From an uncultured bacterium (GTDB lineage: Bacteria; Patescibacteriota; Microgenomatia; Levybacterales; UBA12049): a DNA stretch of 64,000 nt. The DNA lies in NCBI GenBank assembly GCA_963826535.1, contig CAWGXL010000002.1:30503-94502 (forward strand), written 5' to 3'. The position numbers were made by a program, and so were the translations under genes. Below, in pieces: positions 1,214 to 25,520 of this stretch (its first letter is position 1; every line of letters begins with the position of its first letter). The notes below the pieces were generated by a model. That model was not told the origin of the DNA. It did not search any database and worked only from the letters and a program-made list of their open reading frames with translations.

Positions 1214-1319
1214 AGTTGTTATTTCCTTATATATAGTTGATTATCGAACAATGCATATTGTATCATACCATATCAAATATATCCACCGTTTGAATTTTTA
1301 ATATGCTACCATTAAATAT

Positions 1320-2411: not shown

Positions 2412-2447
2412 ACATTAGACCCGCTGAGCAGACCAAAAAGCAACTGA

Positions 2448-3071
2448 CTATTTTTGAATGAACACAACTGCTGATACAGCACCAGCACGAGGAATGCCAT
2501 CCGCAGAATGCCGCCAAACTACCCGCAGTGGATTGCCAGGACGATCTCGACCAATGCTTACAGGGTAGTCATCCGACGTATTATCTAATACCCGGCCAAA
2601 CTGACGCATTAAAAGCTCATTTCCTGTTTTTGCCTTGCAAGCTTTATCTAATTGAGACAAACCTGAGGCTGGCAACATGACTGATCTTGCATAAGGATTT
2701 ATTGCTTCTATTAGTCCCCTGGAATGATTTTGAGTCATAACAAGTTGTAGAGGACGATCCTCATCAAAACTTCCCATAACAAAAACTCTAGTCGGATCTA
2801 TTGCAACTAGCATTGAGTTTGGTAAAGCAAAATCACGTAGACTAGGAATCGCATTTACATAATTCAGCTGATCGCGTCTGAAATAACTTGGATCTTCCTG
2901 AATAACCTCAGGCAATGTTTTTGGCTCGATCCTAAGAAAAATAAATCCACGACTTGCAAATTCTATCTGCTCTTCAATTGACGGCTTACGAACTCTGTAC
3001 AATAAATCATAGGATTCCTGACGAAGATTCTTTTCCGGAACTACTGCTTTTCTCTCTGGACCCAGCCCCAT
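2448..3071 (-). CDS. hypothetical protein (207 aa)
   Basis: Long ORF with no signal peptide and no family motif I can name. Confidence 0.45.
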   Translation of the reverse strand: MGLGPERKAVVPEKNLRQESYDLLYRVRKPSIEEQIEFASRGFIFLRIEPKTLPEVIQEDPSYFRRDQLNYVNAIPSLRDFALPNSMLVAIDPTRVFVMGSFDEDRPLQLVMTQNHSRGLIEAINPYARSVMLPASGLSQLDKACKAKTGNELLMRQFGRVLDNTSDDYPVSIGRDRPGNPLRVVWRHSADGIPRAGAVSAVVFIQK

Positions 3072-3170
3072 ATGACGAGAACCATATCATACTATGAGAT
3101 GTCTGTCAAATATTAAATTGACAACAGTTTATTTTAAAATTTAATTCCGCTCTGATTGAAATACATAAGC

Positions 3171-3275
3171 TTGTCATCCCTACCGAAGCGATAGCCTAGT
3201 TGAGGGATCTCACACAAATGAGTAGCTAAGGCGGTATGAGATTCCTCGACTCCCGTCGGTCGCTCGGAATGACAA
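3171..3275. repeat. Structured palindromic element, copy A: TTGTCATCCC...GGAATGACAA termini enclosing two hairpins closed by ATyCC/GGrAT stems
   Basis: Terminal inverted repeat TTGTCATCCC (3171-3180) / GGAATGACAA (3266-3275). Internal arms are ATCCC(3175-3179)...GGGAT(3204-3208) and ATTCC(3241-3245)...CGACtcccGTCG...GGAAT(3266-3270). It sits in the 3' intergenic region after the 3303..4850 gene. The architecture is shared with copy B at 52156..52271. Confidence 0.5.
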
Positions 3276-3302
3276 TACCAAGTCAACTTATTGCGGCGTA
3301 GT

Positions 3303-4850
3303 TTATTTGTCAACAACTGGTTGGTCAGGTGGCACAGCGCCTCTTTCCATCAATGCTCCCCCTGAACTGACTGGATAAGGATATGGTGGAGTTTGTCTGT
3401 CTTGGAAAAATATAAAGAAAATTAGAGCAAACACAATTCCATAAAACACGAGCCAGAAAATTGTCAGAATGAGAGTTGCCGATCCGGCAATAATCCCTTT
3501 TTTTATACCCACAATAATCCCGGGAGCGAATAAAAACATCGCATAAATACATAAAGAAATAACTGCAAAAAGGAGAATTAAAAGAGAATAGAAAAAGTTA
3601 TAACTGTAATATTGGAAAACCTGTACGAAGTAATAACTTAAAATGTACAAACCGATTGTATATAATAGTATAAGAAGTGACGCGCCGAAACTTGCCCCTA
3701 AAACCACCATGTAAGAAAGAGTTCTGAGGTTACTTGGTTGGTCAGGAGGAGTATCTTTTTTACCAAAAACCTTTTTTACAGCTATAAATAGCGATCCAAA
3801 TGCCAGCACCAGAACGAGAACAAAGATTCCGATTCCAACTCCTATTTCCCGGCCGTATAATTTCCATCTACTATCAGCATACACGCCATGAACTGTATAA
3901 GATTCATTTGGCTGGAGATTAGAAGCTGATTTTACTATTGTACCCTGACCAATTGAATTGTAAAATTGATCAAATTGAGCATTACCCGCGCTTCTCCCTT
4001 CATCAACCGCAGCACTCATAGGAGCGATTGATGTTTCTTTTGCCTGGTAATTAATATCTCCTTTTGCGTCTTTAAGGTAGTAATCAGGATCAACTATGAC
4101 TCCAACCTGCAGGCTTTGAATTGTATCCGCAACTTTAACCGTATCAACAGAAAAATTATATGCTCCAAGCATATCTTTATTCGTAACACCACTCATGGAA
4201 AAGGAAAGAAGCAAGCTTCCGCTGCCATTAGGCTTTACTTCTTTCGGTAATTGAACTGTCAGCTCGCTGCCATTAAGTACAAATTTTGCTTTATGATATG
4301 TTGTAGCCCCCCATCCATATGAATAGTCAGGCTCCTGATACTGATCGCATTTTTGTGTAGGTGGGGGATAATTGTAAATCATAGAATCACTTTCAGAAGT
4401 TAGCGGCATTGGTTGGTATGAAATACACTGCGGCTCCCGGTACACTTGATACACGCTGAGATTTTGCGGATCTTTTTGAAAAGTGAATTTAATTGCCGAC
4501 ACCGAAGCCTCTTCTCTATTTGAAAAAACTGTTTTCAAGGAGAACAAAGCGTCCCCATTGCCCCGTAAAGTTATAGTATAAAAATGATTTTGTCCAAAAG
4601 GGAGACTAGTTTCGGGATTAGGCACCGGGGGCATTATCTTCACCGGCTCGGCAACGCCTGGCATTGTCATTGGTTCCGCATCACGCATCCGATCTTCTGT
4701 CCAATATCCCTCACTCCCTGTAGATTCTGTAGTTGAAGATATGGGTGAAGAGACAGAAACGCTCGCTTTAGTATTATCTTGAGCGAAGGAAGTTATAGGA
4801 AGACAAAGGGTCAATAAAAACACAAACAATACAACCCAGCCTTTTTTCAT
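3303..4850 (-). CDS. secreted/membrane protein: N-terminal signal peptide, ~330-aa extracytoplasmic domain, C-terminal polytopic membrane domain
   Basis: The N-terminus MKKGWVVLFVFLLTLCLPITSFAQD is signal-peptide-like. The C-terminal ~170 aa form several hydrophobic helices (GIGIFVLVLVLAFGSLFIAV..., ...LILLYTIGLYILSYYF..., ...ILTIFWLVFYGIVFALIFFIFF). Confidence 0.6.
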   Translation of the reverse strand: MKKGWVVLFVFLLTLCLPITSFAQDNTKASVSVSSPISSTTESTGSEGYWTEDRMRDAEPMTMPGVAEPVKIMPPVPNPETSLPFGQNHFYTITLRGNGDALFSLKTVFSNREEASVSAIKFTFQKDPQNLSVYQVYREPQCISYQPMPLTSESDSMIYNYPPPTQKCDQYQEPDYSYGWGATTYHKAKFVLNGSELTVQLPKEVKPNGSGSLLLSFSMSGVTNKDMLGAYNFSVDTVKVADTIQSLQVGVIVDPDYYLKDAKGDINYQAKETSIAPMSAAVDEGRSAGNAQFDQFYNSIGQGTIVKSASNLQPNESYTVHGVYADSRWKLYGREIGVGIGIFVLVLVLAFGSLFIAVKKVFGKKDTPPDQPSNLRTLSYMVVLGASFGASLLILLYTIGLYILSYYFVQVFQYYSYNFFYSLLILLFAVISLCIYAMFLFAPGIIVGIKKGIIAGSATLILTIFWLVFYGIVFALIFFIFFQDRQTPPYPYPVSSGGALMERGAVPPDQPVVDK

Positions 4851-4889
4851 ATCTGTTCAAGTACACCATATTCTTTTATCTATGTCAAT

Positions 4890-5807
4890 TCAAAACTTCC
4901 ACCCAAGCTCTTTTTTGATTTCTTTCACGGCTTTCTCGTATTGCTCTTTAGTTAGCTGATTATTTAGAACGCAGTATTTTTTGTTGGCTAAATCCACACA
5001 GCCGAAGCAATCAGAGCAGTTTTTAAGATAGGCGCTATAATAACAATTGGTGCAATATTGACAAAAGTATAAAAAAGCACAGTTATAAAGAGAACGAGAA
5101 AGTGCTAGCTCATAACATCGCTCGGCAACAAGACTTCTGTCCGCGCTACCTGAGTAATATAAATCCCAACAGCTTTTTGCGTTTACGCTAATGAAAATAT
5201 AGCCTGAATTTTCACCATAAAAAGTATTAAAACACCAATAATTATTTTTTGAATTATAAATGTAATTACCATAAAGACAATTCTCATTATCCAACTGTTG
5301 GTTTGCGGGATGAGGAATTTGTCGTTTTAAATCAAACATTTGCTTGAGAAGCTTTTCAGGGTTTTGTTTTCTTAGCTCTTCAACTTTTTTAAAATATTCC
5401 TCTTTGGTATATTGTTTATTAAATATACAATATTTCTTATGAGTTAAACCTACACATCCGAAGCAATCTGCACAGGCATTTAACATCGCGGAAAAATGAC
5501 AGCCTGTACAACTGTTGCAATCCATCAGATACGTACAATTATGACATTTAGTGGAATCAATACATTGATAGCACTTTTCAGATTCTGCAACAAAAGTACA
5601 ATCTACGACTTTGTTACTCCAAAATCCATTCGAAGTATATATCCCGTCTTCCAAGTAGCTTGAAATAAAACAGTGATAGCAATTTTTGCTGTTATAAAGG
5701 ATATCTCCATATTCACAATCAACAGATTGGAAAGTTATAGTTGCCGGAACAGGAATAGATTTTTTCAGAAGCTCATATTTTTCCAGAAAGGTCATAATAA
5801 ATATCAA
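4890..5807 (-). CDS. Cys-rich repeat protein (about 30 Cys, internal two-fold duplication), paralog 1
   Basis: 305-aa ORF with repeated ~11-12-aa units carrying C-x2-C (CYHCF, CYQCI, CHNCT, CNSCTGC, CADCFGCVGL...KKYCIFNKQ). The second half repeats this pattern (...CQYCTNCYYSAYLKNCSDCFGCVDLANKKYCVLNNQ). It is about 65% identical to the ORF at 17309..18217, and the N-termini MTFLEK(Y/F)ELLKKSIPVPA are nearly identical. The likely true start is the second Met at 5795. Confidence 0.6.
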   Translation of the reverse strand: MIFIMTFLEKYELLKKSIPVPATITFQSVDCEYGDILYNSKNCYHCFISSYLEDGIYTSNGFWSNKVVDCTFVAESEKCYQCIDSTKCHNCTYLMDCNSCTGCHFSAMLNACADCFGCVGLTHKKYCIFNKQYTKEEYFKKVEELRKQNPEKLLKQMFDLKRQIPHPANQQLDNENCLYGNYIYNSKNNYWCFNTFYGENSGYIFISVNAKSCWDLYYSGSADRSLVAERCYELALSRSLYNCAFLYFCQYCTNCYYSAYLKNCSDCFGCVDLANKKYCVLNNQLTKEQYEKAVKEIKKELGWKF

Positions 5808-8036: not shown

Positions 8037-8834
8037 TTATTCCCCGGGCGAAGCGGGACAAACAAATTCACAATTAGGTCCGGTTCTCCCCACAAACGAT
8101 CCATCAGGACACTGCCTCGCATCCTCCGTGCAAAATGTTAGTTTCTGTGTAGGAGGTGGAATCGATACCTGCGCTTGGTCGAGGAATTTGAAGGTGGAGA
8201 TGATTTGGCCAAAAACCCTGGATGCATTTTCATCATAATATTGTATTTGTAGTTCGATTAATGGTTCCATATTGGTTTTAATTATATCGCTGCTTTCACC
8301 ATTTATTTCAACTAATTCAAAACCTTTTCCGGGAACACCTCCTAGAATAATTTGTCCTGAACGATTTCCGTTAATGCATTTTTTGACAATTTGACTACTT
8401 GAACATTCAGGATATGCTAGAAAATTTATAAATGATTTCGGATCATCAGACACAGTAATTCCTATCGCAGGGGTTCCATTTTGGTAATACAATATTATTT
8501 TAGTGTCTTTCTCTTCAATTTTGTCAATTTGCTGTGGATATTGAAAGGCAAAAGAATATCGATTATTAATATATGTTTTCATTTTACTCGGATCGGAAGT
8601 TGGAGAAGCAGAAAAAGAATTCGGAGATGTTGTCGGTTGTAATATAGCTAATTGTTTTTGTTTATAATTTGACGAAACATATTTAATTCCGAATACAACT
8701 ATTATAAAAATAAGTGAAAAAAGCAAAAAGTATTTGCCATATTTATCCAGGAACGAAGCATTAGGGTCATTCAACAATTTTTTATAGACCTCCGGAAGCT
8801 CTTGCTCTGGAGCAGGACGTTCAGAATTATCCAT
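8037..8834 (-). CDS. membrane-anchored hypothetical protein with a C-terminal 4-Cys module
   Basis: A single TM segment (FLLFSLIFIIVVFGIKYV) follows a ~35-aa cytoplasmic N-terminus. The extracytoplasmic C-terminus ends ...FCTEDARQCPDGSFVGRTGPNCEFVCPASPGE. Confidence 0.55.
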   Translation of the reverse strand: MDNSERPAPEQELPEVYKKLLNDPNASFLDKYGKYFLLFSLIFIIVVFGIKYVSSNYKQKQLAILQPTTSPNSFSASPTSDPSKMKTYINNRYSFAFQYPQQIDKIEEKDTKIILYYQNGTPAIGITVSDDPKSFINFLAYPECSSSQIVKKCINGNRSGQIILGGVPGKGFELVEINGESSDIIKTNMEPLIELQIQYYDENASRVFGQIISTFKFLDQAQVSIPPPTQKLTFCTEDARQCPDGSFVGRTGPNCEFVCPASPGE

Positions 8835-8967: not shown

Positions 8968-9852
8968 ATGGAAAAAGATTATTATAAAGCACTAGGTGTT
9001 TCTAAAAGTGCAACTCACGATGAAATAAAACGTGCCTACCGTAAGCTTGCTCTTGAATTTCATCCGGACCGTAATAAAACCAAAGAAGCAGGTGATAAGT
9101 TTAAAGAAATAACCAAAGCTTATGAAGTACTGTCCAATGATGAAAAAAGAAAAATGTACGACCAGGTAGGCCATGCAGCCTTCGAACAAGGAGCAGGTCA
9201 GGGTCCCTTTGGAGGCGGGGGCGGGCAATCTTCCGGACAATATGGACCTTTCACATATAGTTATCAAACGAATGGAGGAGGAGCTGACTTTGATTTCGGA
9301 GGCTACTCTGACCCATTTGAAATTTTCGAACAATTCTTCGGCGGCGGTTCACCATTCGGGCAACGACAGCGGCGCCCTATATACTCAGCAGCAATCAGTT
9401 TTATGGACGCAGCGCTCGGTACAGAGAAGGAGTTAATAATTAATGGAGAAAAACAGAAAATTAAAATTCCCGCAGGAGTTGATAGCGGTTCTAGAATCCG
9501 ATTTGAGAAGTATGACATTGTGCTTGATGTCAAGCCGGACGCACGCTTTGCGCGCGAAGGATCTGATGTTGTATCGGAAAAAGAAATCTCTTTCACACAA
9601 GCCGCAATAGGCGCGGAAATATCAGTCGCAACTGTTGATGGAGATATTAAAATACGCATACCCGAAGGAACACAACCTGGTACCTTGATCCGCCTTCAAG
9701 GACGAGGCATCCCTCATCTCAGAGGCAGCGGACGGGGAAGTCACTATGTACGCATCAAAGTCGTCGTCCCCAAAAAACTTTCAAAACAACAAAGAGATCT
9801 CCTTGAAGAATTTCAGAAAGAAGAGCTACAAGCAAAAAAACGCTGGTTCTAA
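8968..9852 (+). CDS. DnaJ-family J-domain protein (CbpA-like class II: J domain, G/F region, DnaJ C-terminal domains, no CxxCxGxG zinc finger)
   Basis: J domain [34 protein letters not shown] with the HPD motif, then a Gly/Phe-rich linker ([21 protein letters not shown]...[20 protein letters not shown]) and a C-terminal substrate-binding region. There are no Cys repeats. Confidence 0.8.
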
Positions 9853-9879: not shown

Positions 9880-12800
9880 ATGGGAGAAACCTCACTTGCC
9901 GAGTCAATCGACCCAAAATTGGTAAATTTTCAAAAAGACGTACCTACTCAGAAAAAACCAAATTTGTATCTAGTTAACCCTCCGCAGCATCTAGAATCTT
10001 CCGCTAAAAAGAAAAATGGCGAAGTTCCTCATCCACCGGAAAAATCAAAATTTATATTTGACAGATCAAAAATTGAAGATGAATCAAAAAACTTTGATAA
10101 AGCAATACTAGATCCACTTACCGGAGTTGACCCTGCTTTTGAAGCAGGAACAAAAAACAATTTAGATTACCTTTGCCGCACCGGCGATCTTGAATTTAAC
10201 ACCCCAAGAACACAGATTCTTCAGAATATTGTCGATAAAATGACAGGACAAGACGGTATTCATGAAAAACTTATGACCGTATCTTCAAAAAAAGCAGTTG
10301 AAGCACGAATTGTAATAAAAAACAAAGGCGAGGCAGATGACGCCTTTGTACTTCCGGACGGGACGATTGTTTTATCTCAATCACTTATTGATAAGCTTAC
10401 TTTGGATGAGGTTGGCGGAGTCATGGCTCATGAGATTAACCACATCAGAACCGAAACAGCGGCAAAAAAAGAAGCAGCCGGAGGTCATGCATTTGGAGTT
10501 TGCTGGGCGCATGAAACCGCGGAAGACGCACTCGCTCCTGACCTATTGGTAAAAGCCGACCTTAATAGTTTAGGATTCTCTTCAGCAATCATCAAAGTTT
10601 CGGGCGCGGAAAGAGGAAGTATACATCAAAGTGGACTTTCCCGTGGTTCACAAAGCGTAGGACAGCACTTCGGACTGGATTTCGGCACAAGCAGCCAAGA
10701 ACAGACGCCACTTCCGGAACTACTAAAAACAAAAGAACCAATAAAAAAAACCAATCTGGAAGTAATGGGACAGCTTATCCGCCAGCAGGAACCTGAAAAT
10801 GTAGAACAAACGCTCTCTCTTTTGCACCCGCATGACTTAAAAGACGCTTATCAACATATAATCAATCAGGAGCGAGGAGGTGAATATTGGTCTCCAAAGG
10901 CGCTAACCGAGGAACAGAAAAAAATTATTGAGCTTGGCAGCGCGTATTTAAATAATCGATTGGAAGAAGCAGGCTATTCGCAAACTGAAAGGAATCTATT
11001 TTTTATCTTTATGCAAAGTTATAGTGCACGTACCCCCAGCTTCAGCATGATAAAAACACCTGAAATGGTGCTTGAAGCGACACGCGCTTTACCGGACTAC
11101 ATTAACTTTGGCGGACATGGCGACATTCATAGATCTCTTTTTGATAAAGAAATTACCGGCAGTACGGTGGAATCTTTCCTAAACATAATAAGTGCTAGAA
11201 TGCATGATACCGGTATCTCTCCTCAAGGTCAGAATGAAATACCCATCACAAAAGAGATTCTATTAAAAACACTGACTGAGATAAATTCGTGGGAAAATAT
11301 CGCCAACGGTTTAAAAGTTAAAGGTAAAGCAGGAGTATTTACCCAGGTCATAGAAAGTTATATAAGTAAAACCTACATCAGTACAGATAATGCCTATAAA
11401 AAGTTGCTTGATGAAACAAAAACAAGAGAATTACTTCAGGAAGTAAAAGATTTAAATATCCCAATAAATCTGGATACCCTTCATACAAGAATGAGTGCCT
11501 CTCCGGAAGAAAGAAAAGTTTATGAATTATTTAAAGAATTTTTTGTAGAAAAGAGCCCTAAAACAACTGAGCAAAGTATAGACGATTTTCTTGACTCATA
11601 TATAGGTCTACCGGAAAATGAAAAAGGAGGGGAACTTGATTATTTCATGAAAATAATCCGCAAAGATTTCGATGAAAAAGAACTAACAGACGCTCAAAGA
11701 ATAAATTATGTCAAGTATTTCGGGTCAAAAGTAAAAGAGCTCGATCTCTCATCAAATATTGACCTAAACAAGGAACTCAATCTGAATATTAAAGAAATTC
11801 CAGACAAAGAGCTATTCCAAAGAAACTTATTGGAATTTAATATGCAATCAAATGCTGCACTCGCCCTGCTGCAAAAAGACGGTGAAGAATTTTATGATTA
11901 TATTAAAGTACTTATGGATAAATCAGGCATTGATATACAAAACTGTTCTCCGGCAGGAATATACAATCTCAGCGCGAGCTTAATTAATATAGACAAAGGT
12001 CACTTTTACAACTTTGACGAGAAAAGTGTTAAAGAGAAAGATTATGTCTTCTTATTAAACCAAATAAAAATTGAAAACATAAATAAGTATCTTCAATTGC
12101 CGTTTCTCCAAAAACTCATGGAAGAATCTGAAAAAAAATTATCTTTTACAACATTAAAAGATTTAAACAAGTATATTGATACTGAAATATTCCAAAAAAG
12201 GCTTGATAGTAGAAGCAGCAGTCATTTATTTGAAGACACACTAAGCTCAATAATTACCCTAAAACCGGTTAGGGAAAATTTCTTGGAATTACTACAACGC
12301 GGTGTCCCTGAAGATGAATACCCACAGTTGTATAAATTTATAAAATTAGAATATCCATCAGGTCCGCGTGAAAAAGAATTTCTCAGAGCATTAAATGTCA
12401 GGTATTTGGACAAACCAATTGGTTCCCAAAACGAATTACATGAGAGAATTGATTATCTTAAGCAAAATTTTAATTCCGTCGGACCGGAGGGGATGGCACT
12501 ACTTGCCAATCATATCAATACATTGCCTCAATATCTGCATTTCAGGAAAGAAATGGCAGAGCTATTGGCCACTTATTTGGATGGGTCAGGTATAGTCAGC
12601 GCTGTCGCGATGGGAGACTTCGCAACCTCGTTTTTTACAAAACACTTTGCGGATCTATTAGAAAGCAGCAAAACAGACAAGCAGACAAAAAGTAAATTAT
12701 CAACAGACATGGCCAAGGAATGGTTCAAATTTTTCTTTATAGAAGGATCTAATCGTGATAAAAGAGTGAATTTTGACAAAGAAACAGGCAAAATAGAATT

Positions 12801-14574
12801 AAACGGTACCACACGAGATATTTTCAAAACATTTGCTGATTTGGTAAAAGAAATAAAAGGTCTTTCTGAACTTAAGAGATTTGCTATCACCCACAAATCA
12901 CTGGTTGATACCGGAGGAGCATTAACAGACGACAACAACAGAAAGCAATTGGGAGAAATACTTAACGCATCTCTGGAAACAAAGTCAACTTTTATCAGTC
13001 ATGCTCTGCAAAAAGGCTGCGAGCTAGCACCGGCAGAATTTTTCAGCTTCCCAATCTCAAAAATGCTTGCTCCTTTATTATTTAGGAGCCTTGATACCAA
13101 TTATGTGGATCTTAAAAAAGTATCGAGGGAAGATTATGAGGATAAAGTTCCATATAAACAGCTTCCTGTATTATTCGGATCAGACACCAGAGACGTAACG
13201 CTTTTTGGCGCACATTACAAAGGGGAGACTAATACAAAAGTTGCCCAAATGGCCATAGAAAGCGATGATCAATACCACCTCGCAACCCAATTACTTGATC
13301 GAATACTTACAGAAGAACCTGTTATAGGGGCGCCACATAAAGAGCCTGACGAAAAAGTTAAAGTTGATCCCAATACTGAAGCGATTATTAGCGCTGTTGA
13401 AGCGAGCGGGCCACTTGGAAAAAGATGTCTTCAGCTCTCGCGCCAACTTCATGAATTTGCGCCGGCTACAGACAGACGTCTTGCGAATTCCTTTGATAGC
13501 ACACCCGGTCTGAATAAATTGTTTCTTTGGGAAAATCTGGTCAGACATATGGAAAATGGTCATGACCCCGAACTTTCGGATTTTATAAAAAATAACCTTG
13601 TGGAGCTTAATGATGTCATAGCTGGCGGCAGCCTAAATACTGTAGCCAGCGCTAAAGTCAAAGATGAAAAAGGTAATACACGAAGCGCAGTTCTTCGTTA
13701 TCTCAACCCCAACCCGGAAGTTTTTATCGCAAAAACCCATGAAACAGCGCAAAAAGTATTAGAAGCAATTGAACTGACGGGAAATTCGCAAGATAGAAAA
13801 TTTGCGCGTATGGGATTAGTTTTTACTGATCTCTCCCGGGAATGGTGTCTCCGCGATATCAATGACCCGACATATGAAAAAGATGATGATGAATTTCGGG
13901 AGACTATTAGGTCATTCAATGAGCAAAAAGCAACATCATTCTATGCACCGGAACGGCTATTTACCCATAGAAAATTGAAAGTTGAGGAAGAAGCAGAAGG
14001 CAGGACAATAAATAAACTATTAAATGATGCAAACATATCTGTTAATGAAAAAAAGGAAACGGTCAACCGCCTAATGAGCTTTTTTGACTTTCAATTAACA
14101 AACCTGGCAGGAACCTCAGAGACAGGAGAAAATTACTATCTCATCCATTCAGATCCTCATGTTGGCAATTACATGATGGAAAATGGAAACTTAACAGAAA
14201 ACGCCGTACTAGATAGAAACATGTATTTGAAAATTAACGGGCAAGAAGCAAATATGTTTCATAATTTATTAAATACAGGCGACTATAAAACTTTTATTGA
14301 TCCGTTTATAGATGCATTATTGGATAAGAATAAAGTAATAAATGAAACTACAAGAAACGAAAGTAAAAAAAGGATAATGCGCTCCATGAAAACCGAGTAT
14401 TTAAAACAACAAATGTATCGCATGGTAAAATTCCGTTCAACCGTTGATAATTTTTCATTGATACGTAGTCTTATGAATGAATGCGCGGAAGCTAAGTTGG
14501 ATATACCGCTTGAAATGCGCCTTATGATCAGAAATGTAGAAATATTCAGAAATTTGGCGCAAAAATATTCTTAA
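9880..14574 (+). CDS. giant multidomain protein (1564 aa): N-terminal soluble M48-like Zn-metallopeptidase domain and C-terminal UbiB/ABC1-like atypical kinase domain
   Basis: The N-terminal region ...ADDAFVLPDGTIVLSQSLIDKLTLDEVGGVMAHEINHIRTE...AHETAEDALA fits the M48 pattern (NAF..G..ivl..gLl..l...El.aVlaHElgH, followed by the E..AD..A third-ligand motif). The C-terminal region GGSLNTVASAKVKDEKGNTRSAVLRYLNPN...HSDPHVGNYMMENG...VLDRNMY matches ABC1/UbiB motifs (ASIGQVH...VAVKVQRP; HADPHPGN), with K->R in VAVK and DFG->DRN. There is no signal peptide or TM segment. The ~900-aa Lys/Glu-rich middle has no motif I can name. Confidence 0.6.
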   Translation: MGETSLAESIDPKLVNFQKDVPTQKKPNLYLVNPPQHLESSAKKKNGEVPHPPEKSKFIFDRSKIEDESKNFDKAILDPLTGVDPAFEAGTKNNLDYLCRTGDLEFNTPRTQILQNIVDKMTGQDGIHEKLMTVSSKKAVEARIVIKNKGEADDAFVLPDGTIVLSQSLIDKLTLDEVGGVMAHEINHIRTETAAKKEAAGGHAFGVCWAHETAEDALAPDLLVKADLNSLGFSSAIIKVSGAERGSIHQSGLSRGSQSVGQHFGLDFGTSSQEQTPLPELLKTKEPIKKTNLEVMGQLIRQQEPENVEQTLSLLHPHDLKDAYQHIINQERGGEYWSPKALTEEQKKIIELGSAYLNNRLEEAGYSQTERNLFFIFMQSYSARTPSFSMIKTPEMVLEATRALPDYINFGGHGDIHRSLFDKEITGSTVESFLNIISARMHDTGISPQGQNEIPITKEILLKTLTEINSWENIANGLKVKGKAGVFTQVIESYISKTYISTDNAYKKLLDETKTRELLQEVKDLNIPINLDTLHTRMSASPEERKVYELFKEFFVEKSPKTTEQSIDDFLDSYIGLPENEKGGELDYFMKIIRKDFDEKELTDAQRINYVKYFGSKVKELDLSSNIDLNKELNLNIKEIPDKELFQRNLLEFNMQSNAALALLQKDGEEFYDYIKVLMDKSGIDIQNCSPAGIYNLSASLINIDKGHFYNFDEKSVKEKDYVFLLNQIKIENINKYLQLPFLQKLMEESEKKLSFTTLKDLNKYIDTEIFQKRLDSRSSSHLFEDTLSSIITLKPVRENFLELLQRGVPEDEYPQLYKFIKLEYPSGPREKEFLRALNVRYLDKPIGSQNELHERIDYLKQNFNSVGPEGMALLANHINTLPQYLHFRKEMAELLATYLDGSGIVSAVAMGDFATSFFTKHFADLLESSKTDKQTKSKLSTDMAKEWFKFFFIEGSNRDKRVNFDKETGKIELNGTTRDIFKTFADLVKEIKGLSELKRFAITHKSLVDTGGALTDDNNRKQLGEILNASLETKSTFISHALQKGCELAPAEFFSFPISKMLAPLLFRSLDTNYVDLKKVSREDYEDKVPYKQLPVLFGSDTRDVTLFGAHYKGETNTKVAQMAIESDDQYHLATQLLDRILTEEPVIGAPHKEPDEKVKVDPNTEAIISAVEASGPLGKRCLQLSRQLHEFAPATDRRLANSFDSTPGLNKLFLWENLVRHMENGHDPELSDFIKNNLVELNDVIAGGSLNTVASAKVKDEKGNTRSAVLRYLNPNPEVFIAKTHETAQKVLEAIELTGNSQDRKFARMGLVFTDLSREWCLRDINDPTYEKDDDEFRETIRSFNEQKATSFYAPERLFTHRKLKVEEEAEGRTINKLLNDANISVNEKKETVNRLMSFFDFQLTNLAGTSETGENYYLIHSDPHVGNYMMENGNLTENAVLDRNMYLKINGQEANMFHNLLNTGDYKTFIDPFIDALLDKNKVINETTRNESKKRIMRSMKTEYLKQQMYRMVKFRSTVDNFSLIRSLMNECAEAKLDIPLEMRLMIRNVEIFRNLAQKYS

Positions 14575-14606: not shown

Positions 14607-14615
14607 AATATAATT
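14607..14615 (+). promoter_or_regulatory. extended -10 element TGTTATAAT upstream of the MGMT-domain gene
   Basis: TGnTATAAT match 26 nt upstream of the ATG at 14641. Confidence 0.3.
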
Positions 14616-14990: not shown

Positions 14991-15105
14991 ATAAGTAATA
15001 TGCGTCACCATTATTGCAAAAGAGCTGCCAAGACTGGGTAGAATATCCATAACTGAACCTCGCTTAGCGGGGTTTTTTAATTTTAGAACTTATTTTGTAT
15101 TAATT

Positions 15106-17274
15106 ATGATAAACCGAAAGGCGTTCGGTAATTTAGTTGTTTTGAAAGAGCAATTAAAAGAGAAGTGCGGAGTCATTGGGGTTTGGTCTGGAGAAAAAAT
15201 TGCGCCTTATTATGTACGAAAAGGTTTGTCCACACTGCAGCATCGAGGTCAAGAAAGTGCCGGAATTAGCATTTACACTCCTCAAGACAAAATAAAAACT
15301 TATTCAGGCATGGGTCTTGTTCTCGGTGTGCTGACAGCCGAAGTTCTTAAGCAGCTGGGAGAAAGTATGGCTGCTATTGGACATAATAGATATTCTACCA
15401 GCGGCAGTACCAGTTTAAGTAATGCCCAACCTATTACGCTCAAAAAGGGAAAATTTGAATTGAGCATAGGACATAATGGCAATATCCCTGATTGCGAGTA
15501 CCTTGGAGAACAAATAGAAGAAAAACAAAAAGAAGGAGAAACCAGCGATACTCATCTAGTCGCAAAGCTCCTATTGCAAGAACGGCCAAACTATTCAGAT
15601 TGGGACGAAACCCTAAAACAAGTATTACCGCGAATTCGCGGAGCTTTTTGTTTTGTAATTTTAACTGAAGACGGCAACATTTACGGCGCCCGCGATACAT
15701 ATGGTATACGGCCCTTTTGTTTAGGAAAATTTGAGAATGGGTGGATTATTGCCTCAGAATCTGTTGCTGTTGATTTAACAGGTGCCGAATTTTTGCGCGA
15801 TATTAAACCGGGAGAGATTATTAAGATCAGCTTTGATGGGAAGCTTACCTCTTTCTTTTTCGGTGCGCCATCAAGAGAACAGAATTGTATTTTTGAATAT
15901 ATTTATTTTTCCCGCCCGGATAGTTTTGAAAATGGCATTAGGATAAGAAAAGGGCGTGAAGAATCAGGCAGACTGTTGGGACAGCGAATTCTGAAAAAGG
16001 CAATCTTGGCAGATGTCGTGGTCCCTGTCTTTGACTCCGGATATCCGGCGGCGAAAGGAGTGGCGCATGTTCTTGGATTGCCTCTTGTGGACGCTATTAC
16101 TGTAAGTCATTATATCGGCCGAACTTTTATCCAACCGGGGCATGAAAATAGAAAGGCAGCAGTGAATGGCAAGCATAATATTATACCCGATGATATTAAG
16201 GGTATGCGAATTATTGTGGTTGATGATTCAGCAGTACGATTAACAACGAGCAAGCGGTTGACTCGTGAATTAAATGCAGCAGGTGCAAAGAGTGTATTTA
16301 TGGCTATTGCCAGCCCTCCAGTTGTTAACCACTGCGATATGGGCATTGATATGAAAAGTAAAAAAGAACTGCCGGCTTCTCTTTGGGAACATGAACCATT
16401 TGAGCTGATTGAAGAAAATGTTGCCAAGTTTATAGGCTCAAATGCAGCCGTGTATTTGCCAATTGAAGATTTAACCCGCGCTTTAGGAGGCGCAAAAGAG
16501 GATTTCTATCACTATCCGTTTGGTGGACCGCATCCTATACGCGATGCACAGCATAAATTTCCCAAGAGGAAGAAAACTATAAATCCTAAACCAAGAATAG
16601 CAATTTTAATTTCCGGAACTGGCACAAATCTTCAGGCAATTATCGATGGTGTAAAAACTCATGATATTGAGGCAGAAATCGTTTCAGTGGTATCGAACAA
16701 AAAGGACGCCTATGGTCTCAAAAGAGCCAAAGAGAATAATATTCCAACCCTCGTTCTTCCTATGACAGGAAAACTGAATGATAAAGTCGCGAGAAAAGAA
16801 TTTGAGTTGAAGCTTCTTGCTCATATCAAAAAGACCGCCGCCGACCTTATTGTTTTGGCTGGCTGGATGTTGGTTTTGGGGGATGAGTTCCTATCTGCTT
16901 TAGCAAAATTGGAAGTGCCTGTTATTAATCTTCATCCCGCGTTATTATCAAAAGGCAATGAAGATCATATCGCTACATCACGCGGGACTATCCCGGTTAT
17001 CCGTGGTATAGGTACACAAGCAATAAAATATGCTTTTGACAAAAACTTACTTGTTTCAGGAGTGACAGTCCATCAAATACTCCCCAAAAATAATTTTGAT
17101 ATCGGCCCGGTCATTTTAAAAGAGGAAGTAAGAAGAAGAAAAGAAGATACACTTGAAACATTTGAGAAACGAACTCATGAAGCGGAATATCGGGTTTTAC
17201 CAACAGCGATCAAAAGAGTTTTGCACGTCATGAAACAAGGAGTAGATGTAAGCCGCGGGGAGTTTTATTGGTAA
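15106..17274 (+). CDS. purF: fusion protein: amidophosphoribosyltransferase (PurF, with ~20-aa propeptide) fused to phosphoribosylglycinamide formyltransferase (PurN)
   Basis: The PurF part has the Ntn class-II amidotransferase start ...KEKCGVIGVW after a propeptide, and a PRTase motif ...GMRIIVVDDSAVRLTTSKRL.... The C-terminal ~200 aa read PRIAILISGTGTNLQAIIDG...VINLHPALLSK...GVTVHQI, the PurN formyltransferase signatures. Confidence 0.8.
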   Translation: MINRKAFGNLVVLKEQLKEKCGVIGVWSGEKIAPYYVRKGLSTLQHRGQESAGISIYTPQDKIKTYSGMGLVLGVLTAEVLKQLGESMAAIGHNRYSTSGSTSLSNAQPITLKKGKFELSIGHNGNIPDCEYLGEQIEEKQKEGETSDTHLVAKLLLQERPNYSDWDETLKQVLPRIRGAFCFVILTEDGNIYGARDTYGIRPFCLGKFENGWIIASESVAVDLTGAEFLRDIKPGEIIKISFDGKLTSFFFGAPSREQNCIFEYIYFSRPDSFENGIRIRKGREESGRLLGQRILKKAILADVVVPVFDSGYPAAKGVAHVLGLPLVDAITVSHYIGRTFIQPGHENRKAAVNGKHNIIPDDIKGMRIIVVDDSAVRLTTSKRLTRELNAAGAKSVFMAIASPPVVNHCDMGIDMKSKKELPASLWEHEPFELIEENVAKFIGSNAAVYLPIEDLTRALGGAKEDFYHYPFGGPHPIRDAQHKFPKRKKTINPKPRIAILISGTGTNLQAIIDGVKTHDIEAEIVSVVSNKKDAYGLKRAKENNIPTLVLPMTGKLNDKVARKEFELKLLAHIKKTAADLIVLAGWMLVLGDEFLSALAKLEVPVINLHPALLSKGNEDHIATSRGTIPVIRGIGTQAIKYAFDKNLLVSGVTVHQILPKNNFDIGPVILKEEVRRRKEDTLETFEKRTHEAEYRVLPTAIKRVLHVMKQGVDVSRGEFYW

Positions 17275-17308
17275 CCCGCCTTACGCATAACATGATAAAA
17301 TAAGAACG

Positions 17309-18217
17309 ATGACCTTTCTTGAAAAATTCGAACTCCTGAAAAAATCAATTCCTGTTCCGGCCATAACGATTGACAAATCTACAATTGATTGTGAATACGT
17401 AGATTATGCCTATGGAAGCAAAAATTGCTATTATTGTTTTACTAGCAATCTACTTAAAGACAGTATGTATTCAACAATGGGATGGGGCGATAAGTTAGTA
17501 GATTGTACTTATTTAGCAGAGTCGGAAAGATGTTTTCAATGCGTTGATTGCACTAAATGTTATAGCTCTACCTATTTAATGGATTGTAATAGCACTACTG
17601 ATTGCCATTTCTCGGCATTTTTAAACTCTTGCAACGATTGTTTTGGTTGTGTTGCATTAACTCATAAGAAATATTGTATTTTCAACAAACAATACACAAA
17701 AGATGAATATATGAAAAAAGTTGAAGAATTAAAAAAAGAAAAACCTGAAAAGATTCTAAAACAAATGCTGGAATTAAAAAAACAAATACCTCATCCCGCA
17801 AGCATACAATACAATAATGAAAAAAGCCCTTATGGTGATTATATATATGATTCAAAGAACGTTTATTGGGGTTTTAATTGTTGGTATGGAGAAAATTGTG
17901 GATATATCTATACAGGCGGTACGTCGAAAAACTCATGGGACACTTTTTTCTCAGGCGGATTCAAATCTAAAGGAACTATTTCTGAACGAGTTTATGAACA
18001 AGTAGATTCAGTCGTATGTTACGATTGTGCATTTCTTAACAATTGTAATAACTGCACTAATTGTTATTACAGCGCGGATATGAGAAACTGCTCAGACTGC
18101 TTCGGTTGCGTTGGGCTATCAAAGAAAAAATACTGTATCCTCAATAATCAACTAACCAAAGACCAATACGAAAAAGCTGTTAAAAATATCAGAAAAGAAC
18201 TTGGGTGGAAATCTTAG
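17309..18217 (+). CDS. Cys-rich repeat protein, paralog 2, embedded in the purine operon
   Basis: 302-aa ORF about 65% identical to 4890..5807 with the same C-x2-C repeat architecture and N-terminus (MTFLEKFELLKKSIPVPA). It starts 35 bp after purF-purN and overlaps the purD start. Confidence 0.6.
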   Translation: MTFLEKFELLKKSIPVPAITIDKSTIDCEYVDYAYGSKNCYYCFTSNLLKDSMYSTMGWGDKLVDCTYLAESERCFQCVDCTKCYSSTYLMDCNSTTDCHFSAFLNSCNDCFGCVALTHKKYCIFNKQYTKDEYMKKVEELKKEKPEKILKQMLELKKQIPHPASIQYNNEKSPYGDYIYDSKNVYWGFNCWYGENCGYIYTGGTSKNSWDTFFSGGFKSKGTISERVYEQVDSVVCYDCAFLNNCNNCTNCYYSADMRNCSDCFGCVGLSKKKYCILNNQLTKDQYEKAVKNIRKELGWKS

Positions 18218-18233
18218 TCTTGGAAAGATAGAT

Positions 18234-19535
18234 ATGGTAAAAAAGTCAGTCCTCATCATCGGCAACCTAGCCCGCGAACATGCCCTGGGTTGGAAACTTA
18301 AACAATCTGCCAAAGTAGGAAAAATTTATTTTGCTCCCGGAAATGTGGGCACTGGTCTAATTGGTGAGAATACAGGAATTGATGCCCTTGATATTAAGTC
18401 ATTAGTAAAATTTGCTAAAACGCATAATATTTATTTGACCGTTGCCGGCCCTGACGCATCGCTTGCTGCCGGAGTAGTTGACGAGTTTAAAAAAGCTAAA
18501 ATGAAAATTTTCGGACCCACTAAGAATGCGGCACAAATTGAATCATCAAAAGCCTTTTCGAAACAGTTGATGAAAGAAGAAAATATCCCGACAGCAGTTT
18601 TTAAAAAATTTACCGATCCCTCAAAAGCCAACAAATATGTCAAAACACTAAGCTTGCCGATTGTCATAAAAGCCAGTGGATTGGCATCGGGTAAAGGAGT
18701 AATTATCGCAAAAACCTTAGACGTAGCGCAAAGATTAATTGATGATATTTTAATTAAGAAAATCTTCGGAGAATCAGGCAATGAAATAATCATTGAAGAA
18801 TTTTTAGAAGGCCATGAAATTTCCATCCACGCTTTTTGTGACGGAAAAACCGTTTCAGTATTTCCTGTAAGTAAAGATCACAAGTCTATTTTTGAAAACA
18901 ACCTCGGGCCAAACACCGGCGGCATGGGAACGATTGCACCTGTGCCGGGTTTAAATAAATCTTTTTTGAAAGAAGTAAATCAAACAATTGTTCAACCGGC
19001 TCTCAATGGCATGAAGAAAAAAGGAATTACCTTTACCGGTTGTTTATATCCGGGATTAATTTTAACCAAACAAGGACCAAAAGTACTCGAATTTAATTCC
19101 CGTTTTGGCGACCCGGAAATGGAATCTTACATGAGGATTTTAGAGACCGATATTTTTGATATTTTAGAAGCATGTGTCAACAGTACACTTTCTCAACTGA
19201 ATATCAAATGGAAAAAACAATTCGCATGTTGTATAGTCCTTGCATCCGCTGGTTATCCAGGAACAGTAAAGACAGGAGAAATTATACATGGCCTTAAACT
19301 TACTCCTCCCTTGATAAAGGGAGGTCGGGAGGGATTTAATAATGACGTTGCAGTATTCCATTTCGGAACCAAAATTGAAAATGGGAACTTAGTCACAAAT
19401 GGCGGCAGGGTCCTCGGCATAACAGCAATCGGAAATACTTTGGATCAGGCTTTAGATAAAGCATATGCTATGATTGGAGAAAAAGGAATCCATTTTTCGG
19501 GAATGCAATATAGACGGGATATTGGAAGATCATGA
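18234..19535 (+). CDS. purD: phosphoribosylamine--glycine ligase (GAR synthetase)
   Basis: The PurD N-terminus reads MVKKSVLIIGNLAREHALGWKLKQSAKVGKIYFAPGNVGT. The ATP-grasp body is present. The C-terminus reads ...NGGRVLGITAIGNTLDQALDKAY. The track ORF begins at an upstream TTG (18201), and ATG 18234 is the more likely start. Confidence 0.85.
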   Translation: MVKKSVLIIGNLAREHALGWKLKQSAKVGKIYFAPGNVGTGLIGENTGIDALDIKSLVKFAKTHNIYLTVAGPDASLAAGVVDEFKKAKMKIFGPTKNAAQIESSKAFSKQLMKEENIPTAVFKKFTDPSKANKYVKTLSLPIVIKASGLASGKGVIIAKTLDVAQRLIDDILIKKIFGESGNEIIIEEFLEGHEISIHAFCDGKTVSVFPVSKDHKSIFENNLGPNTGGMGTIAPVPGLNKSFLKEVNQTIVQPALNGMKKKGITFTGCLYPGLILTKQGPKVLEFNSRFGDPEMESYMRILETDIFDILEACVNSTLSQLNIKWKKQFACCIVLASAGYPGTVKTGEIIHGLKLTPPLIKGGREGFNNDVAVFHFGTKIENGNLVTNGGRVLGITAIGNTLDQALDKAYAMIGEKGIHFSGMQYRRDIGRS

Positions 19536-22534: not shown

Positions 22535-22548
22535 TTGAAAATTATTTT

Positions 22549-23346: not shown

Positions 23347-23386
23347 TACTGTTTGCAATATTGAGCTTATAGTGATATAATAATTT

Positions 23387-24400: not shown

Positions 24401-24404
24401 CTTT

Positions 24405-25511: not shown

Positions 25512-25520
25512 TTATTTATT

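What the first reader, a model, noticed from the sequence alone, without database searches (positions are those of the whole stretch)
9880..14574. 1564-aa cytoplasmic-looking protein combining a soluble M48-like HExxH peptidase domain with a UbiB/ABC1-like kinase domain, downstream of a zinc-finger-less DnaJ
The N-terminal region fits the M48 peptidase pattern (…DDAFVLPDGTIVLSQSLIDKL…VMAHEINHI…ETAEDALA) but has none of the membrane helices seen in HtpX/Ste24. The last ~350 aa carry ABC1/UbiB landmarks (…SLNTVASAKV…AVLRYLNPN…HSDPHVGN…VLDRNMY), with the VAVK lysine replaced by Arg and DFG by DRN. The ~900 residues between are Lys/Glu-rich helix with no motif I can place. I do not know a described protein family with this combination. 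An ABC1 kinase is unexpected in a reduced genome with no evident quinone pathway. It may be a pseudokinase or a regulatory or effector scaffold. It starts 28 bp after the J-domain gene on the same strand. The stand-alone MGMT domain follows, but an extended -10 element (14607..14615) lies between them, so MGMT may have its own promoter.
Basis: partly seen in the sequence, partly recalled or inferred. Interest (0 to 1): 0.72.

Follow-up and report, generated by a model that had tools for sequence, protein, structure and literature searches.

The report
Soluble M48 protease fused to UbiB-like kinase
This is one intact gene for a 1564-residue soluble protein that joins a self-locking zinc protease to a UbiB-type (ATP-using, kinase-like) domain through a long helical scaffold; it belongs to a large, uncharacterised family in ultra-small Patescibacteria and links two enzyme families that were only known to work side by side.

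Summary
ORF 9880..14574 (+) is one uninterrupted 1564-aa gene, collinear with more than 100 homologues of 1500-1700 aa.

- **Middle ~840 residues:** an all-helical scaffold with no specific relative.
- **Localisation and context:** no member has a membrane segment or signal peptide. The DnaJ and MGMT neighbours are not conserved elsewhere.
- **Distribution and annotation:** named members come from Patescibacteria (Daviesbacteria, Nomurabacteria). Public annotation says only "M48 family metalloprotease".

My best reading, which is inferred, is a latent protease whose plug is released by the nucleotide cycle of the UbiB-like module. I rate it a new variant of known kinds, with interest 0.6.

The parts
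9880..14574 (+). Whole gene: 1564-aa M48 peptidase / helical scaffold / UbiB-like protein (stop codon included)
   Evidence: The ORF listing and translation show a single stop. It is collinear with 10 indexed homologues and with 113 full-length representatives.
9880..10131 (+). Variable, probably disordered N-terminal region (residues 1-84) carrying a short conserved motif, phi-[ED]-[DN]-E-[FY] ... L-x-P-L (residues 65-80)
   Evidence: Conservation is low overall, but Glu68 is kept in 99/113 and Pro79 in 101/113. The region is coil in the AF2 model.
10132..10839 (+). M48 zinc-metallopeptidase domain (residues ~85-320)
10429..10443 (+). HEINH zinc-binding and catalytic motif (His184, Glu185, His188)
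   Evidence: It aligns to BepA H136/E137/H140. Each residue is conserved in 112/113.
10513..10527 (+). ETAED: third zinc ligand Glu212, and Asp216 (the latch partner)
   Evidence: Glu212 aligns to BepA E201 and Asp216 to D205. They are conserved in 113/113 and 112/113. The HExxH-to-Glu spacing is 24-27 residues family-wide, against 61 in BepA.
10624..10644 (+). HQSGLSR: auto-inhibitory plug motif H-x(5)-R (M48 consensus H-P-x4-R)
   Evidence: The extended hhalign puts His249 on BepA H246, Gln250 on P247 and Arg255 on R252. His is kept in 105/113 and Arg in at least 90%. The motif definition comes from 10.1101/2020.07.30.230011.
10840..13356 (+). All-alpha scaffold (residues 321-1159): poorly conserved first part (330-780) and better conserved second part (780-1130)
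13357..14571 (+). UbiB/ABC1-like atypical kinase-fold domain (residues 1160-1564)
13423..13434 (+). RCLQ: counterpart of the UbiB KxGQ motif (Arg1182, Gln1185)
   Evidence: The global hhalign puts Arg1182 on the Lys and Gln1185 on the Gln of E. coli UbiB KFGQ. Position 1182 is Arg in 106 and Lys in 6 of 113. Gln1185 is kept in 113/113.
13621..13635 (+). AGGSL nucleotide-binding loop. The family consensus is GGGSL, which is Gly-rich where UbiB is Ala-rich.
   Evidence: It aligns to UbiB ASASIAQVH. Gly1250 is kept in 112/113 and Ser1251 in 113/113.
13696..13698 (+). Arg1273 at the beta3 'VAIK' lysine position
   Evidence: It aligns to the Lys of UbiB VVIKV. The family has Lys in 94 and Arg in 19 of 113.
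14146..14169 (+). HSDPHVGN catalytic loop (Asp1425, Asn1430)
   Evidence: It aligns to UbiB HADMHPGN. Asp is kept in 111/113 and Asn in 113/113.
14212..14226 (+). DRNMY: counterpart of the DFG metal-binding motif (Asp1445)
   Evidence: It aligns to UbiB IDCG. Asp is kept in 112/113 and Arg1446 in 109/113.

Best explanation
**Shown.** The locus is one gene for a soluble three-part enzyme that belongs to a conserved family found largely in Patescibacteria. The three parts are:
1. An M48 zinc protease with a full catalytic set and the family's auto-inhibitory latch. The latch is plug His249 as fourth zinc ligand, held by the Arg255-Asp216 pair. The domain lacks the long lid or membrane segment that other M48 enzymes have between HExxH and the Glu ligand.
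2. An ~840-residue alpha-helical scaffold.
3. A UbiB-type kinase-fold domain with all nucleotide-binding and catalytic residues.

**Inferred mechanism.** The protein is a latent, nucleotide-controlled protease. The UbiB-like module binds and hydrolyses ATP (or autophosphorylates), possibly in response to a hydrophobic ligand or client, as COQ8 does. The resulting conformational change is passed through the helical scaffold and displaces the His plug, so the M48 site cleaves only when licensed. By analogy with both parent families, likely clients are hydrophobic, membrane-derived or misassembled polypeptides in the cytoplasm.

**Confidence.** About 0.9 for the anatomy and about 0.35 for the coupling mechanism.
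For: **Anatomy**
- It is a single intact ORF.
- 113 full-length representatives have the same domain order.

**M48 domain**
- Membership is supported by the Pfam cut-off, by fold and by alignment of H184/E185/H188/E212/D216/H249/R255 to BepA H136/E137/H140/E201/D205/H246/R252.
- In BepA, H246 is the fourth zinc ligand that blocks catalysis. The D205-R252 pair holds the plug, and release needs a lid that inserts into the membrane.
- Here the lid region is deleted. The spacing is 24-27 residues against 61, and there is no membrane anchor. A different release trigger is therefore needed.

**UbiB-like domain**
- The KxGQ Gln is kept in 113/113, the catalytic Asp in 111/113, the Asn in 113/113 and the metal-binding Asp in 112/113.
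- In COQ8, ATP hydrolysis drives long-range gating of a C-lobe pocket, and the KxGQ Gln holds the attacking water.

**Linkage of the two halves**
- Both active sites are conserved together in one polypeptide across deep divergence (25-35% identity), which argues for a joint function.
- Independent precedent exists for M48 and UbiB proteins acting in one compartment. The plastoglobule protease PGM48 is co-expressed with ABC1K7 and ABC1K3.
Against: - No experiment and no full-length model exists. The two halves were modelled separately, so no contact between the kinase-like domain and the plug has been seen.
- Fusion alone does not prove allostery.
- The family has a Gly-rich loop and Arg in place of the KxGQ Lys. 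COQ8 variants with A-to-G and K-to-H changes lose ATPase activity and gain autophosphorylation, so the domain may be a true phosphotransferase rather than an ATPase switch.
- The plug Pro is replaced by Gln or Met, so the latch may behave differently.
- No conserved neighbours point to a substrate.
Confidence: 0.4

Rival explanations
1. Two-step modifier. The C-terminal domain is a real phosphotransferase that phosphorylates a protein or small-molecule client, or the enzyme itself. The M48 domain cleaves the same client. The scaffold only brings the two activities and the client together, with no allosteric gating.
For: - The Gly-rich GGGS loop replaces UbiB's Ala-rich loop, and Arg replaces the KxGQ Lys.
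- COQ8 A-to-G plus K-to-H mutants gain autophosphorylation and lose ATPase activity.
- All kinase catalytic residues are conserved.
- Weak sequence and fold similarity also exists to APH, RIO and eukaryotic-type kinases.
Against: - The KxGQ-bearing N-terminal extension, which in COQ8 occludes the protein-substrate site, is retained with its invariant Gln.
- The M48 latch residues are conserved, which implies regulated rather than constitutive proteolysis.
- No phospho-acceptor or substrate is known.
Confidence: 0.25
2. Lipid or hydrophobic-ligand handler. As in COQ8, the UbiB-like domain uses ATP to extract or chaperone a hydrophobic molecule, for example scavenged host lipid or isoprenoid in an organism that cannot make its own. 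The M48 domain processes lipid-anchored or membrane-derived proteins met in the same process.
For: - The closest structural relatives are COQ8A, an ATP-gated lipid-intermediate chaperone, and Rv3197/MABP-1, an ATPase that binds macrolides.
- M48 enzymes characteristically act on membrane or lipid-modified clients such as Ste24, HtpX and BepA.
- Named family members are Patescibacteria. That these commonly lack lipid biosynthesis is my own background knowledge and was not tested here.
Against: - No amphipathic or TM membrane-binding element was detected.
- The profile does not reach canonical UbiB proteins at all. Only 489 hits were found in 1.84 billion proteins, so ligand specificity cannot be transferred.
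- No lipid-metabolism neighbours were seen.
Confidence: 0.2
3. Pseudokinase, inert scaffold or secreted effector. The kinase-like domain is catalytically dead and serves only as a binding module, or the protein is exported to act on a host cell.
For: - The query has Arg instead of the beta3 Lys and DRN instead of DFG.
- Patescibacteria are often epibionts with large exported proteins (my own background knowledge).
- Toxin-antitoxin genes sit next to three homologues.
Against: - The catalytic Asp, the Asn, the metal-binding Asp, the KxGQ Gln and the loop Ser are each conserved in 111-113 of 113 representatives.
- Lys is the majority state at beta3.
- No signal peptide or TM segment occurs in any member.
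- No secretion-system neighbours were seen.
- There is no hit in the defence-system library.
Confidence: 0.08
4. Artefact. The long ORF is a chimera made by a frameshift, a mis-assembly or the fusion of two or three adjacent genes.
For: None was found.
Against: - Ten indexed homologues of 1506-1605 aa align end to end.
- 113 representatives of 1400-1800 aa from independent assemblies share the architecture.
- Composition is uniform.
Confidence: 0.01

Closest known systems
BepA / YfgC (E. coli periplasmic M48 protease with TPR domain; PDB 6AIT, 6SAR)
   Same: - The zinc ligands are the same, as are the plug His and the Asp-Arg latch, which align residue for residue.
- Both are soluble M48 domains followed by a helical domain.
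   Different: - BepA is exported, is 487 aa and has a TPR domain. It also has a ~50-residue alpha6-lid that inserts into the outer membrane to release the plug.
- Here the lid is missing and the plug Pro is Gln.
- The helical part is about 840 residues with no TPR signal, a UbiB-like domain follows, and there is no signal peptide.
COQ8A/ADCK3, Coq8p and E. coli UbiB (UbiB/ABC1 atypical kinase family, PF03109; PDB 4PED)
   Same: - The beta3 Lys/Arg, HxDxHxGN, the metal-binding Asp and the Gln of KxGQ align.
   Different: - Sequence identity is about 15%.
- The query itself fails Pfam ABC1, and the family profile does not retrieve canonical UbiB proteins.
- KxGQ is RxLQ, the Ala-rich loop is Gly-rich and DFG is DRx.
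- There is no C-terminal TM helix or membrane anchor.
- The host lineage is not known to make ubiquinone (my own background knowledge).
Rv3197 / MABP-1 and MSMEG_1954 (mycobacterial UbiB-fold ATPases that bind macrolides; PDB 5YJZ)
   Same: - It is an example of a soluble UbiB-fold ATPase working outside quinone biosynthesis.
   Different: It has no protease or scaffold, it has a different ligand, and it is much shorter.
Plastoglobule pair PGM48 (M48 peptidase) + ABC1K kinases; by extension mitochondrial OMA1 + COQ8
   Same: An M48 protease and UbiB-family proteins operate in one lipid-associated compartment and are co-expressed, as with PGM48 and ABC1K7/ABC1K3.
   Different: They are separate polypeptides in eukaryotic organelles, and no physical or regulatory coupling has been demonstrated in the papers read. 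Here the two are covalently fused in a bacterium. The OMA1/COQ8 parallel is from my own knowledge and was not checked.
FtsH (AAA+ ATPase fused to an M41 HExxH zinc protease)
   Same: The functional analogy is an ATP-using module and a zinc metalloprotease in one polypeptide.
   Different: There is no homology. FtsH uses an AAA+ ring and an M41 protease and is membrane-anchored. Here the ATP module has a protein-kinase-like fold and the protease is M48. This is analogy only and was not tested.

Membership tests
Peptidase family M48 (PF01435) | Profile match above the curated threshold | tested here: met
   The query scores 34.0 bits against a cut-off of 20.3, at E 3.3e-8 over residues 144-195. 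10 of 11 homologues match, with best E 2.4e-12.
Peptidase family M48 (PF01435) | HExxH plus a downstream Glu as third zinc ligand (E-x-x-x-D) | tested here: met
   H184/E185/H188 align to BepA H136/E137/H140. E212 aligns to E201 and D216 to D205. Conservation is 112-113 of 113.
Peptidase family M48 (PF01435) | Auto-inhibitory plug motif H-P-x(4)-R (defined in 10.1101/2020.07.30.230011) | tested here: inconclusive
   His249 and Arg255 are present at the exact spacing and align to BepA H246 and R252, but only in the extended low-confidence part of the alignment. The Pro is replaced by Gln in 85, Met in 14 and Gly in 7 of 113.
Peptidase family M48 (PF01435) | M48 fold | tested here: met
   [not shown]
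Characterised M48 subfamilies (HtpX, Ste24, Oma1, BepA, LoiP, YcaL) | Membrane anchoring or export (TM helices, lipobox or signal peptide) and a long lid or TM insert between HExxH and the Glu ligand | tested here: not met
   Maximum 19-residue hydropathy is 1.65 or less and no signal peptide occurs in 11 members. HExxH-to-Glu spacing is 24-27 against 61 in BepA. NCBIfam HtpX and LoiP models score far below their cut-offs.
UbiB / ABC1 atypical kinase family (PF03109) | Profile match above the curated threshold | tested here: inconclusive
   The query has no hit at E<=1. Five homologues have significant E-values, best 2.3e-7. The short relative P0153 scores 61.8 bits against a cut-off of 22.9 and matches this family's profile at E 1.8e-48. 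hhalign to E. coli UbiB gives E 3.8e-6 to 6.5e-6.
UbiB / ABC1 atypical kinase family (PF03109) | UbiB-type protein-kinase-like fold with the N-terminal helical extension | tested here: met
   [not shown]
UbiB / ABC1 atypical kinase family (PF03109) | Invariant KxGQ motif in the N-terminal extension | tested here: inconclusive
   The aligned position reads R-x-L-Q. Gln is kept in 113/113. The Lys position is Arg in 106 and Lys in 6. Gly is replaced by Leu. The functionally cited residue (Gln) is kept, but the literal motif is not.
UbiB / ABC1 atypical kinase family (PF03109) | Ala-rich nucleotide loop in place of the Gly-rich loop | tested here: not met
   The family consensus is G-G-G-S-L (AGGSL in the query), aligned to UbiB A-S-A-S-I-A-Q.
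UbiB / ABC1 atypical kinase family (PF03109) | Kinase-core catalytic residues (beta3 Lys, HxD Asp, Asn, DFG Asp) | tested here: met
   Asp1425 is kept in 111/113, Asn1430 in 113/113 and Asp1445 in 112/113. Beta3 is Lys in 94 and Arg in 19, and the query has Arg.
UbiB / ABC1 atypical kinase family (PF03109) | ATPase activity stimulated by lipids or phenolic ligands, and membrane association | not testable with these tools
   This needs recombinant protein. No TM segment is present.
DnaJ-linked chaperone/protease operon (implied by the finding) | Conserved adjacency to a J-domain gene | tested here: not met
   None of five other loci (L001, L002, L070, L071, L072) has a DnaJ or MGMT neighbour.
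Known anti-phage defence systems (PADLOC) | Match to any defence-system protein model | tested here: not met
   There were no families at E<=0.01.

The most novel reading that the evidence does not exclude
The fusion is a natural 'Rosetta stone' showing that UbiB-type ATPases and M48 proteases are obligate functional partners. This family would then be a new class of self-contained, ATP-dependent zinc protease, in which a kinase-fold ATPase rather than an AAA+ ring licenses proteolysis by pulling out the M48 His plug. The same logic would then apply to the unfused pairs COQ8/OMA1 in mitochondria, ABC1K/PGM48 in plastoglobules and UbiB/HtpX in bacteria.
Probability: 0.15. Interest if true: 0.85.

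Novelty: new variant of a known kind. Interest (0 to 1): 0.6.

Why it matters
- **UbiB/ABC1 proteins.** They are ancient, near-universal and disease-linked, yet their biochemical role outside coenzyme-Q synthesis remains unclear. This family is a soluble, membrane-free version covalently tied to a defined effector domain, in a lineage thought not to make quinones. It gives a tractable system for asking what the UbiB nucleotide cycle actually drives.
- **M48 proteases.** How the conserved auto-inhibitory plug is released is known only for BepA, where membrane insertion of a lid does it. This family keeps the latch but lacks the lid, so it must use another trigger.
- **Patescibacteria.** This is a large, widely conserved, catalytically intact protein that public annotation labels only as 'M48 family metalloprotease' or 'hypothetical'. 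It is a candidate core proteostasis or envelope-maintenance factor in organisms with very few such systems.

Tried and rejected
- **Sequence search of the PDB.** The whole protein found only a marginal M48 hit, 3C37 at E 0.12. The C-domain profile found only weak APH and Cdc7 hits at E~0.4. Structure prediction was needed.
- **Word-indexed profile search.** Searching with the full alignment added no members. The family looked rare until the exhaustive HMMER search found 489 representatives.
- **GTDB species-representative scan.** It returned one full-length relative, a Nomurabacteria MAG.
- **Gene neighbourhood.** Five other loci gave no conserved partner. P0001 itself is not in the contig index.
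- **Source names.** Lineage had to be inferred from the nearest TopA relatives and from three named family members.
- **Other libraries.** PADLOC gave nothing. PHROGs gave only a weak M48-core hit. Rfam gave nothing in the window.
- **alphaC Glu / 'ExD' region.** I tried to place it from the hhalign output. The alignment there is too uncertain, so the invariant W-C-x-x-D-x-x-D...D-D cluster (residues 1322-1337) is left unassigned.
- **PGM48 paper.** The primary paper (PMC5240743) is not held. Statements about PGM48 rest on secondary papers.
Full report
**1. Observation**

The mechanical ORF list gives one frame, 9880..14574 on the + strand, with an ATG start and 1564 codons. Re-translation shows a single terminal stop, and the ORF's GC content (0.377) equals that of the window (0.381).

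The upstream gene (8968..9852) has the DnaJ and DnaJ_C domains and no zinc-finger domain. The downstream 102-aa gene is a lone MGMT DNA_binding_1 domain. The gap to dnaJ is 27 nt with no terminator-like site. The only terminator-like hairpin nearby follows the MGMT gene, at 15055-15075.

No member of the family has a hydrophobic stretch of transmembrane grade or a signal peptide. The middle region is helical but not especially Lys/Glu-rich.

**2. It is one gene and it has a family**

The indexed protein search found ten relatives of 1065-1605 aa at 25-60% identity, aligned from end to end. A second indexed search with the alignment added nothing.

The exhaustive HMMER search, using a profile of residues 400-1564 against 1.84 billion cluster representatives, found 489 proteins at E<=1e-3 and 217 at E<=1e-30. 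Most of the best 150 are 1500-1700 aa, with the match beginning near residue 370, so they share this architecture. A frameshift or gene-fusion artefact is therefore excluded.

Canonical UbiB proteins, which must number many thousands of clusters, were not reached. The C-terminal domain is thus a deep, separate branch.

Three family members carry source organism names:
- Candidatus Daviesbacteria, annotated by NCBI only as "M48 family metalloprotease"
- Candidatus Nomurabacteria, L003, 1696 aa with all motifs
- a 4.4-kb contig binned as Bacteroidetes

The window's TopA is 64-68% identical to proteins named "Patescibacteria group bacterium" and "Candidatus Saccharimonadales". The window is thus from a Patescibacteria (CPR) genome, and the family spans both the Microgenomates and Parcubacteria branches.

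**3. N-terminal domain: a complete but lid-less M48 protease**

Pfam Peptidase_M48 is above its curated cut-off in the query (34 bits against 20.3) and matches 10 of 11 homologues.

A 101-sequence profile aligned to E. coli BepA gives probability 95% and E 1.8e-8. The alignment maps as follows:

| This protein | BepA |
|---|---|
| H184 / E185 / H188 | H136 / E137 / H140 |
| E212 | E201 (zinc ligand) |
| D216 | D205 |

The extended alignment adds H249 on H246, Q250 on P247 and R255 on R252.

According to the BepA literature, H-P-x4-R is the M48-wide auto-inhibitory plug and its His is the fourth zinc ligand. The D205-R252 hydrogen-bond pair holds the plug in place. Mutating either residue hyperactivates the enzyme, and release normally requires the alpha6-lid to insert into the membrane.

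In 113 full-length representatives of this family, conservation is as follows:
- H184, E185 and H188 are each kept in 112/113.
- E212 is kept in 113/113.
- D216 is kept in 112/113.
- H249 is kept in 105/113.
- R255 is kept in at least 90%.

The segment equivalent to the lid is absent. HExxH-to-Glu spacing is 24-27 residues family-wide, against 61 in BepA. The domain is therefore a catalytically competent, latched M48 protease that lacks the known unlatching device.

**4. C-terminal domain: UbiB-like and catalytically intact**

The evidence comes from the family:
- PF03109 is significant in five homologues, with best E 2.3e-7.
- A short relative, P0153, scores 61.8 bits on ABC1 and E 1.8e-48 on this family's profile.
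- hhalign to E. coli UbiB gives E 6.5e-6 with 10 sequences and E 3.8e-6 with 102 sequences.

The alignment to UbiB places the following:

| This family | UbiB |
|---|---|
| GGGSL loop | ASASIAQ |
| Position 1273 | beta3 Lys |
| HSDPHxGN | HADMHPGN |
| D1445 | metal-binding Asp |
| R1182 | Lys of KFGQ |
| Q1185 | Gln of KFGQ |

Conservation across 113 representatives:
- Q1185, S1251 and N1430 are each kept in 113/113.
- D1445 and G1250 are each kept in 112/113.
- D1425 is kept in 111/113.
- Position 1182 is Arg in 106 and Lys in 6.
- Position 1273 is Lys in 94 and Arg in 19.

The query's Arg is thus a recurrent conservative variant, and the domain is not a decayed pseudokinase.

It differs from textbook UbiB in three signature features. 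KxGQ reads RxLQ, the Ala-rich loop is Gly-rich, and there is no membrane anchor. For that reason I call it UbiB-like rather than a plain member.

In COQ8, the KxGQ Gln holds the water that attacks ATP. A-to-G plus K-to-H variants lose ATPase activity and gain autophosphorylation. The natural Gly-rich loop and the Lys-to-Arg change here therefore leave open whether this domain hydrolyses ATP or transfers phosphate.

**5. Middle region**

Conservation is low for residues 330-780 and moderate for 780-1130. The short relatives P0151 and P0153 have extra N-terminal sequence ahead of the kinase-like part. By eye, that sequence in P0153 resembles the conserved tail of the scaffold. This suggests the tail belongs functionally to the kinase-like module.

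**6. Context**

In the window the gene lies between a class-B-type DnaJ and a small MGMT-domain gene, followed by a purine-biosynthesis cluster. In five other loci the neighbours are unrelated. They include pyrimidine genes, Lgt/LspA, queuosine genes, a pilin-like gene, FtsJ and toxin-antitoxin genes. No operon partner is conserved, and the DnaJ adjacency should not be read as functional linkage.

The protein matches no defence-system model.

**7. Mechanism**

Four things are shown:
- The protease is latent but competent.
- The nucleotide-using domain is competent.
- The two are fused at a fixed order and distance.
- Both active sites are co-conserved across deep divergence.

The mechanism itself is inferred. 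M48 plugs need an external trigger, and this family has lost the membrane-inserting lid. UbiB proteins convert ATP turnover into long-range conformational gating. The most economical model is therefore that the nucleotide cycle of the UbiB-like module, perhaps triggered by a hydrophobic client or ligand, releases the plug through the scaffold. I put this at roughly 0.35-0.4.

The main rivals are:
- a kinase-plus-protease two-step modifier without allostery (0.25)
- a COQ8-like handler of hydrophobic ligands whose protease acts on lipid-associated clients (0.2)
- a pseudokinase or effector reading (below 0.1)

**8. Comparison and novelty**

Each domain has a clear closest relative, BepA-type M48 and COQ8/UbiB. 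I found no description of the combination in the searchable literature, and public annotation sees only the M48 part.

A functional association of the two families is hinted at by plant plastoglobules, where the M48 peptidase PGM48 is co-expressed with ABC1K7 and ABC1K3. A covalent fusion would be the strongest genomic evidence so far for such a partnership.

I classify it as a new variant of known kinds, namely a new conserved architecture with altered signature motifs, and not as categorically new.

**9. Limits**

- No full-length model could be made because of the 1200-residue cap, so inter-domain contacts are untested.
- The lineage distribution rests on few named sequences.
- Absence of a quinone pathway in this genome was not tested.
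- All functional statements are inference from homology.

Noticed in passing
window 15106-30772 (+): This is a contiguous de novo purine-biosynthesis cluster. It contains a 722-aa PurF (GATase+PRTase) / PurN (Formyl_trans_N) fusion, an ORF with no Pfam hit (17309-18217), PurD, a 1000-aa PurL, PurQ, two tandem DUF1246/DUF1297 proteins (the archaeal PurP type), PurB, PurK, PurC and PurM. A full pathway, and archaeal-type PurP in duplicate, are unusual for a Patescibacteria genome. This also argues against reading the genome as extremely reduced.
   Followed up: partly
L001 7493-7693; L070 5046-5683; L071 229-486: Toxin-antitoxin-type genes (a HicB-like antitoxin, Fic + MazE, and a ParE toxin) lie directly beside the homologous giant gene in three of the six loci examined. 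They are absent in the window, L002 and L072. This may be chance.
   Followed up: no
window 10072-10119 (protein residues 65-80): A short conserved linear motif sits in the otherwise variable N-terminus: phi-[ED]-[DN]-E-[FY] then L-x-P-L. Glu68 is kept in 99/113 and Pro79 in 101/113. The query has Ser where most members have Phe or Tyr. It could be a docking or pseudo-substrate segment. The AF2 model gives it moderate confidence although it is coil.
   Followed up: partly
window 13843-13893 (protein residues 1322-1338): A near-invariant acidic cluster, W-C-x-x-D-x-x-D ... D-D, lies in the N-lobe of the kinase-like domain. W1322 is kept in 111/113, C1323 in 104, D1326 in 105 and D1336 in 109. 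I could not map it confidently onto the UbiB alphaC or 'ExD' elements.
   Followed up: partly
proteins P0146 (5745 aa), P0154 (2690 aa), P0143 (2344 aa), P0149 (2060 aa), P0151/P0153 (633/690 aa): There are variant architectures of the family. Giant proteins carry the scaffold and kinase-like parts deep inside. P0154 has its M48 core at residues 992-1057. Short forms appear to be scaffold tail plus kinase-like domain without a protease. Whether the short forms are complete genes was not checked.
   Followed up: partly
window 8037-8834 (-): This divergently oriented 265-aa ORF has one N-terminal hydrophobic helix and a Cys-rich C-terminal tail (CTEDARQCPDGSFVGRTGPNCEFVCP). Its only hit is a sub-threshold PsbP_2 match.
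   Followed up: no
window 1-64000: No Rfam family reaches its gathering score anywhere in the 64 kb. There is no tRNA, rRNA, riboswitch or other described RNA.
   Followed up: no
window 491-5807 (-): Four consecutive minus-strand ORFs of 207-515 aa (491-1213, 2448-3071, 3303-4850, 4890-5807) have no Pfam hit at E<=1e-5. DprA (1320-2411, + strand) lies among them.
   Followed up: no
P0007 (MBU3928485.1): A partial family member is deposited as 'Bacteroidetes bacterium' from a 4.4-kb MAG contig. Every other named member is from Patescibacteria, so this is probably a binning error rather than a real occurrence outside that group.
   Followed up: no
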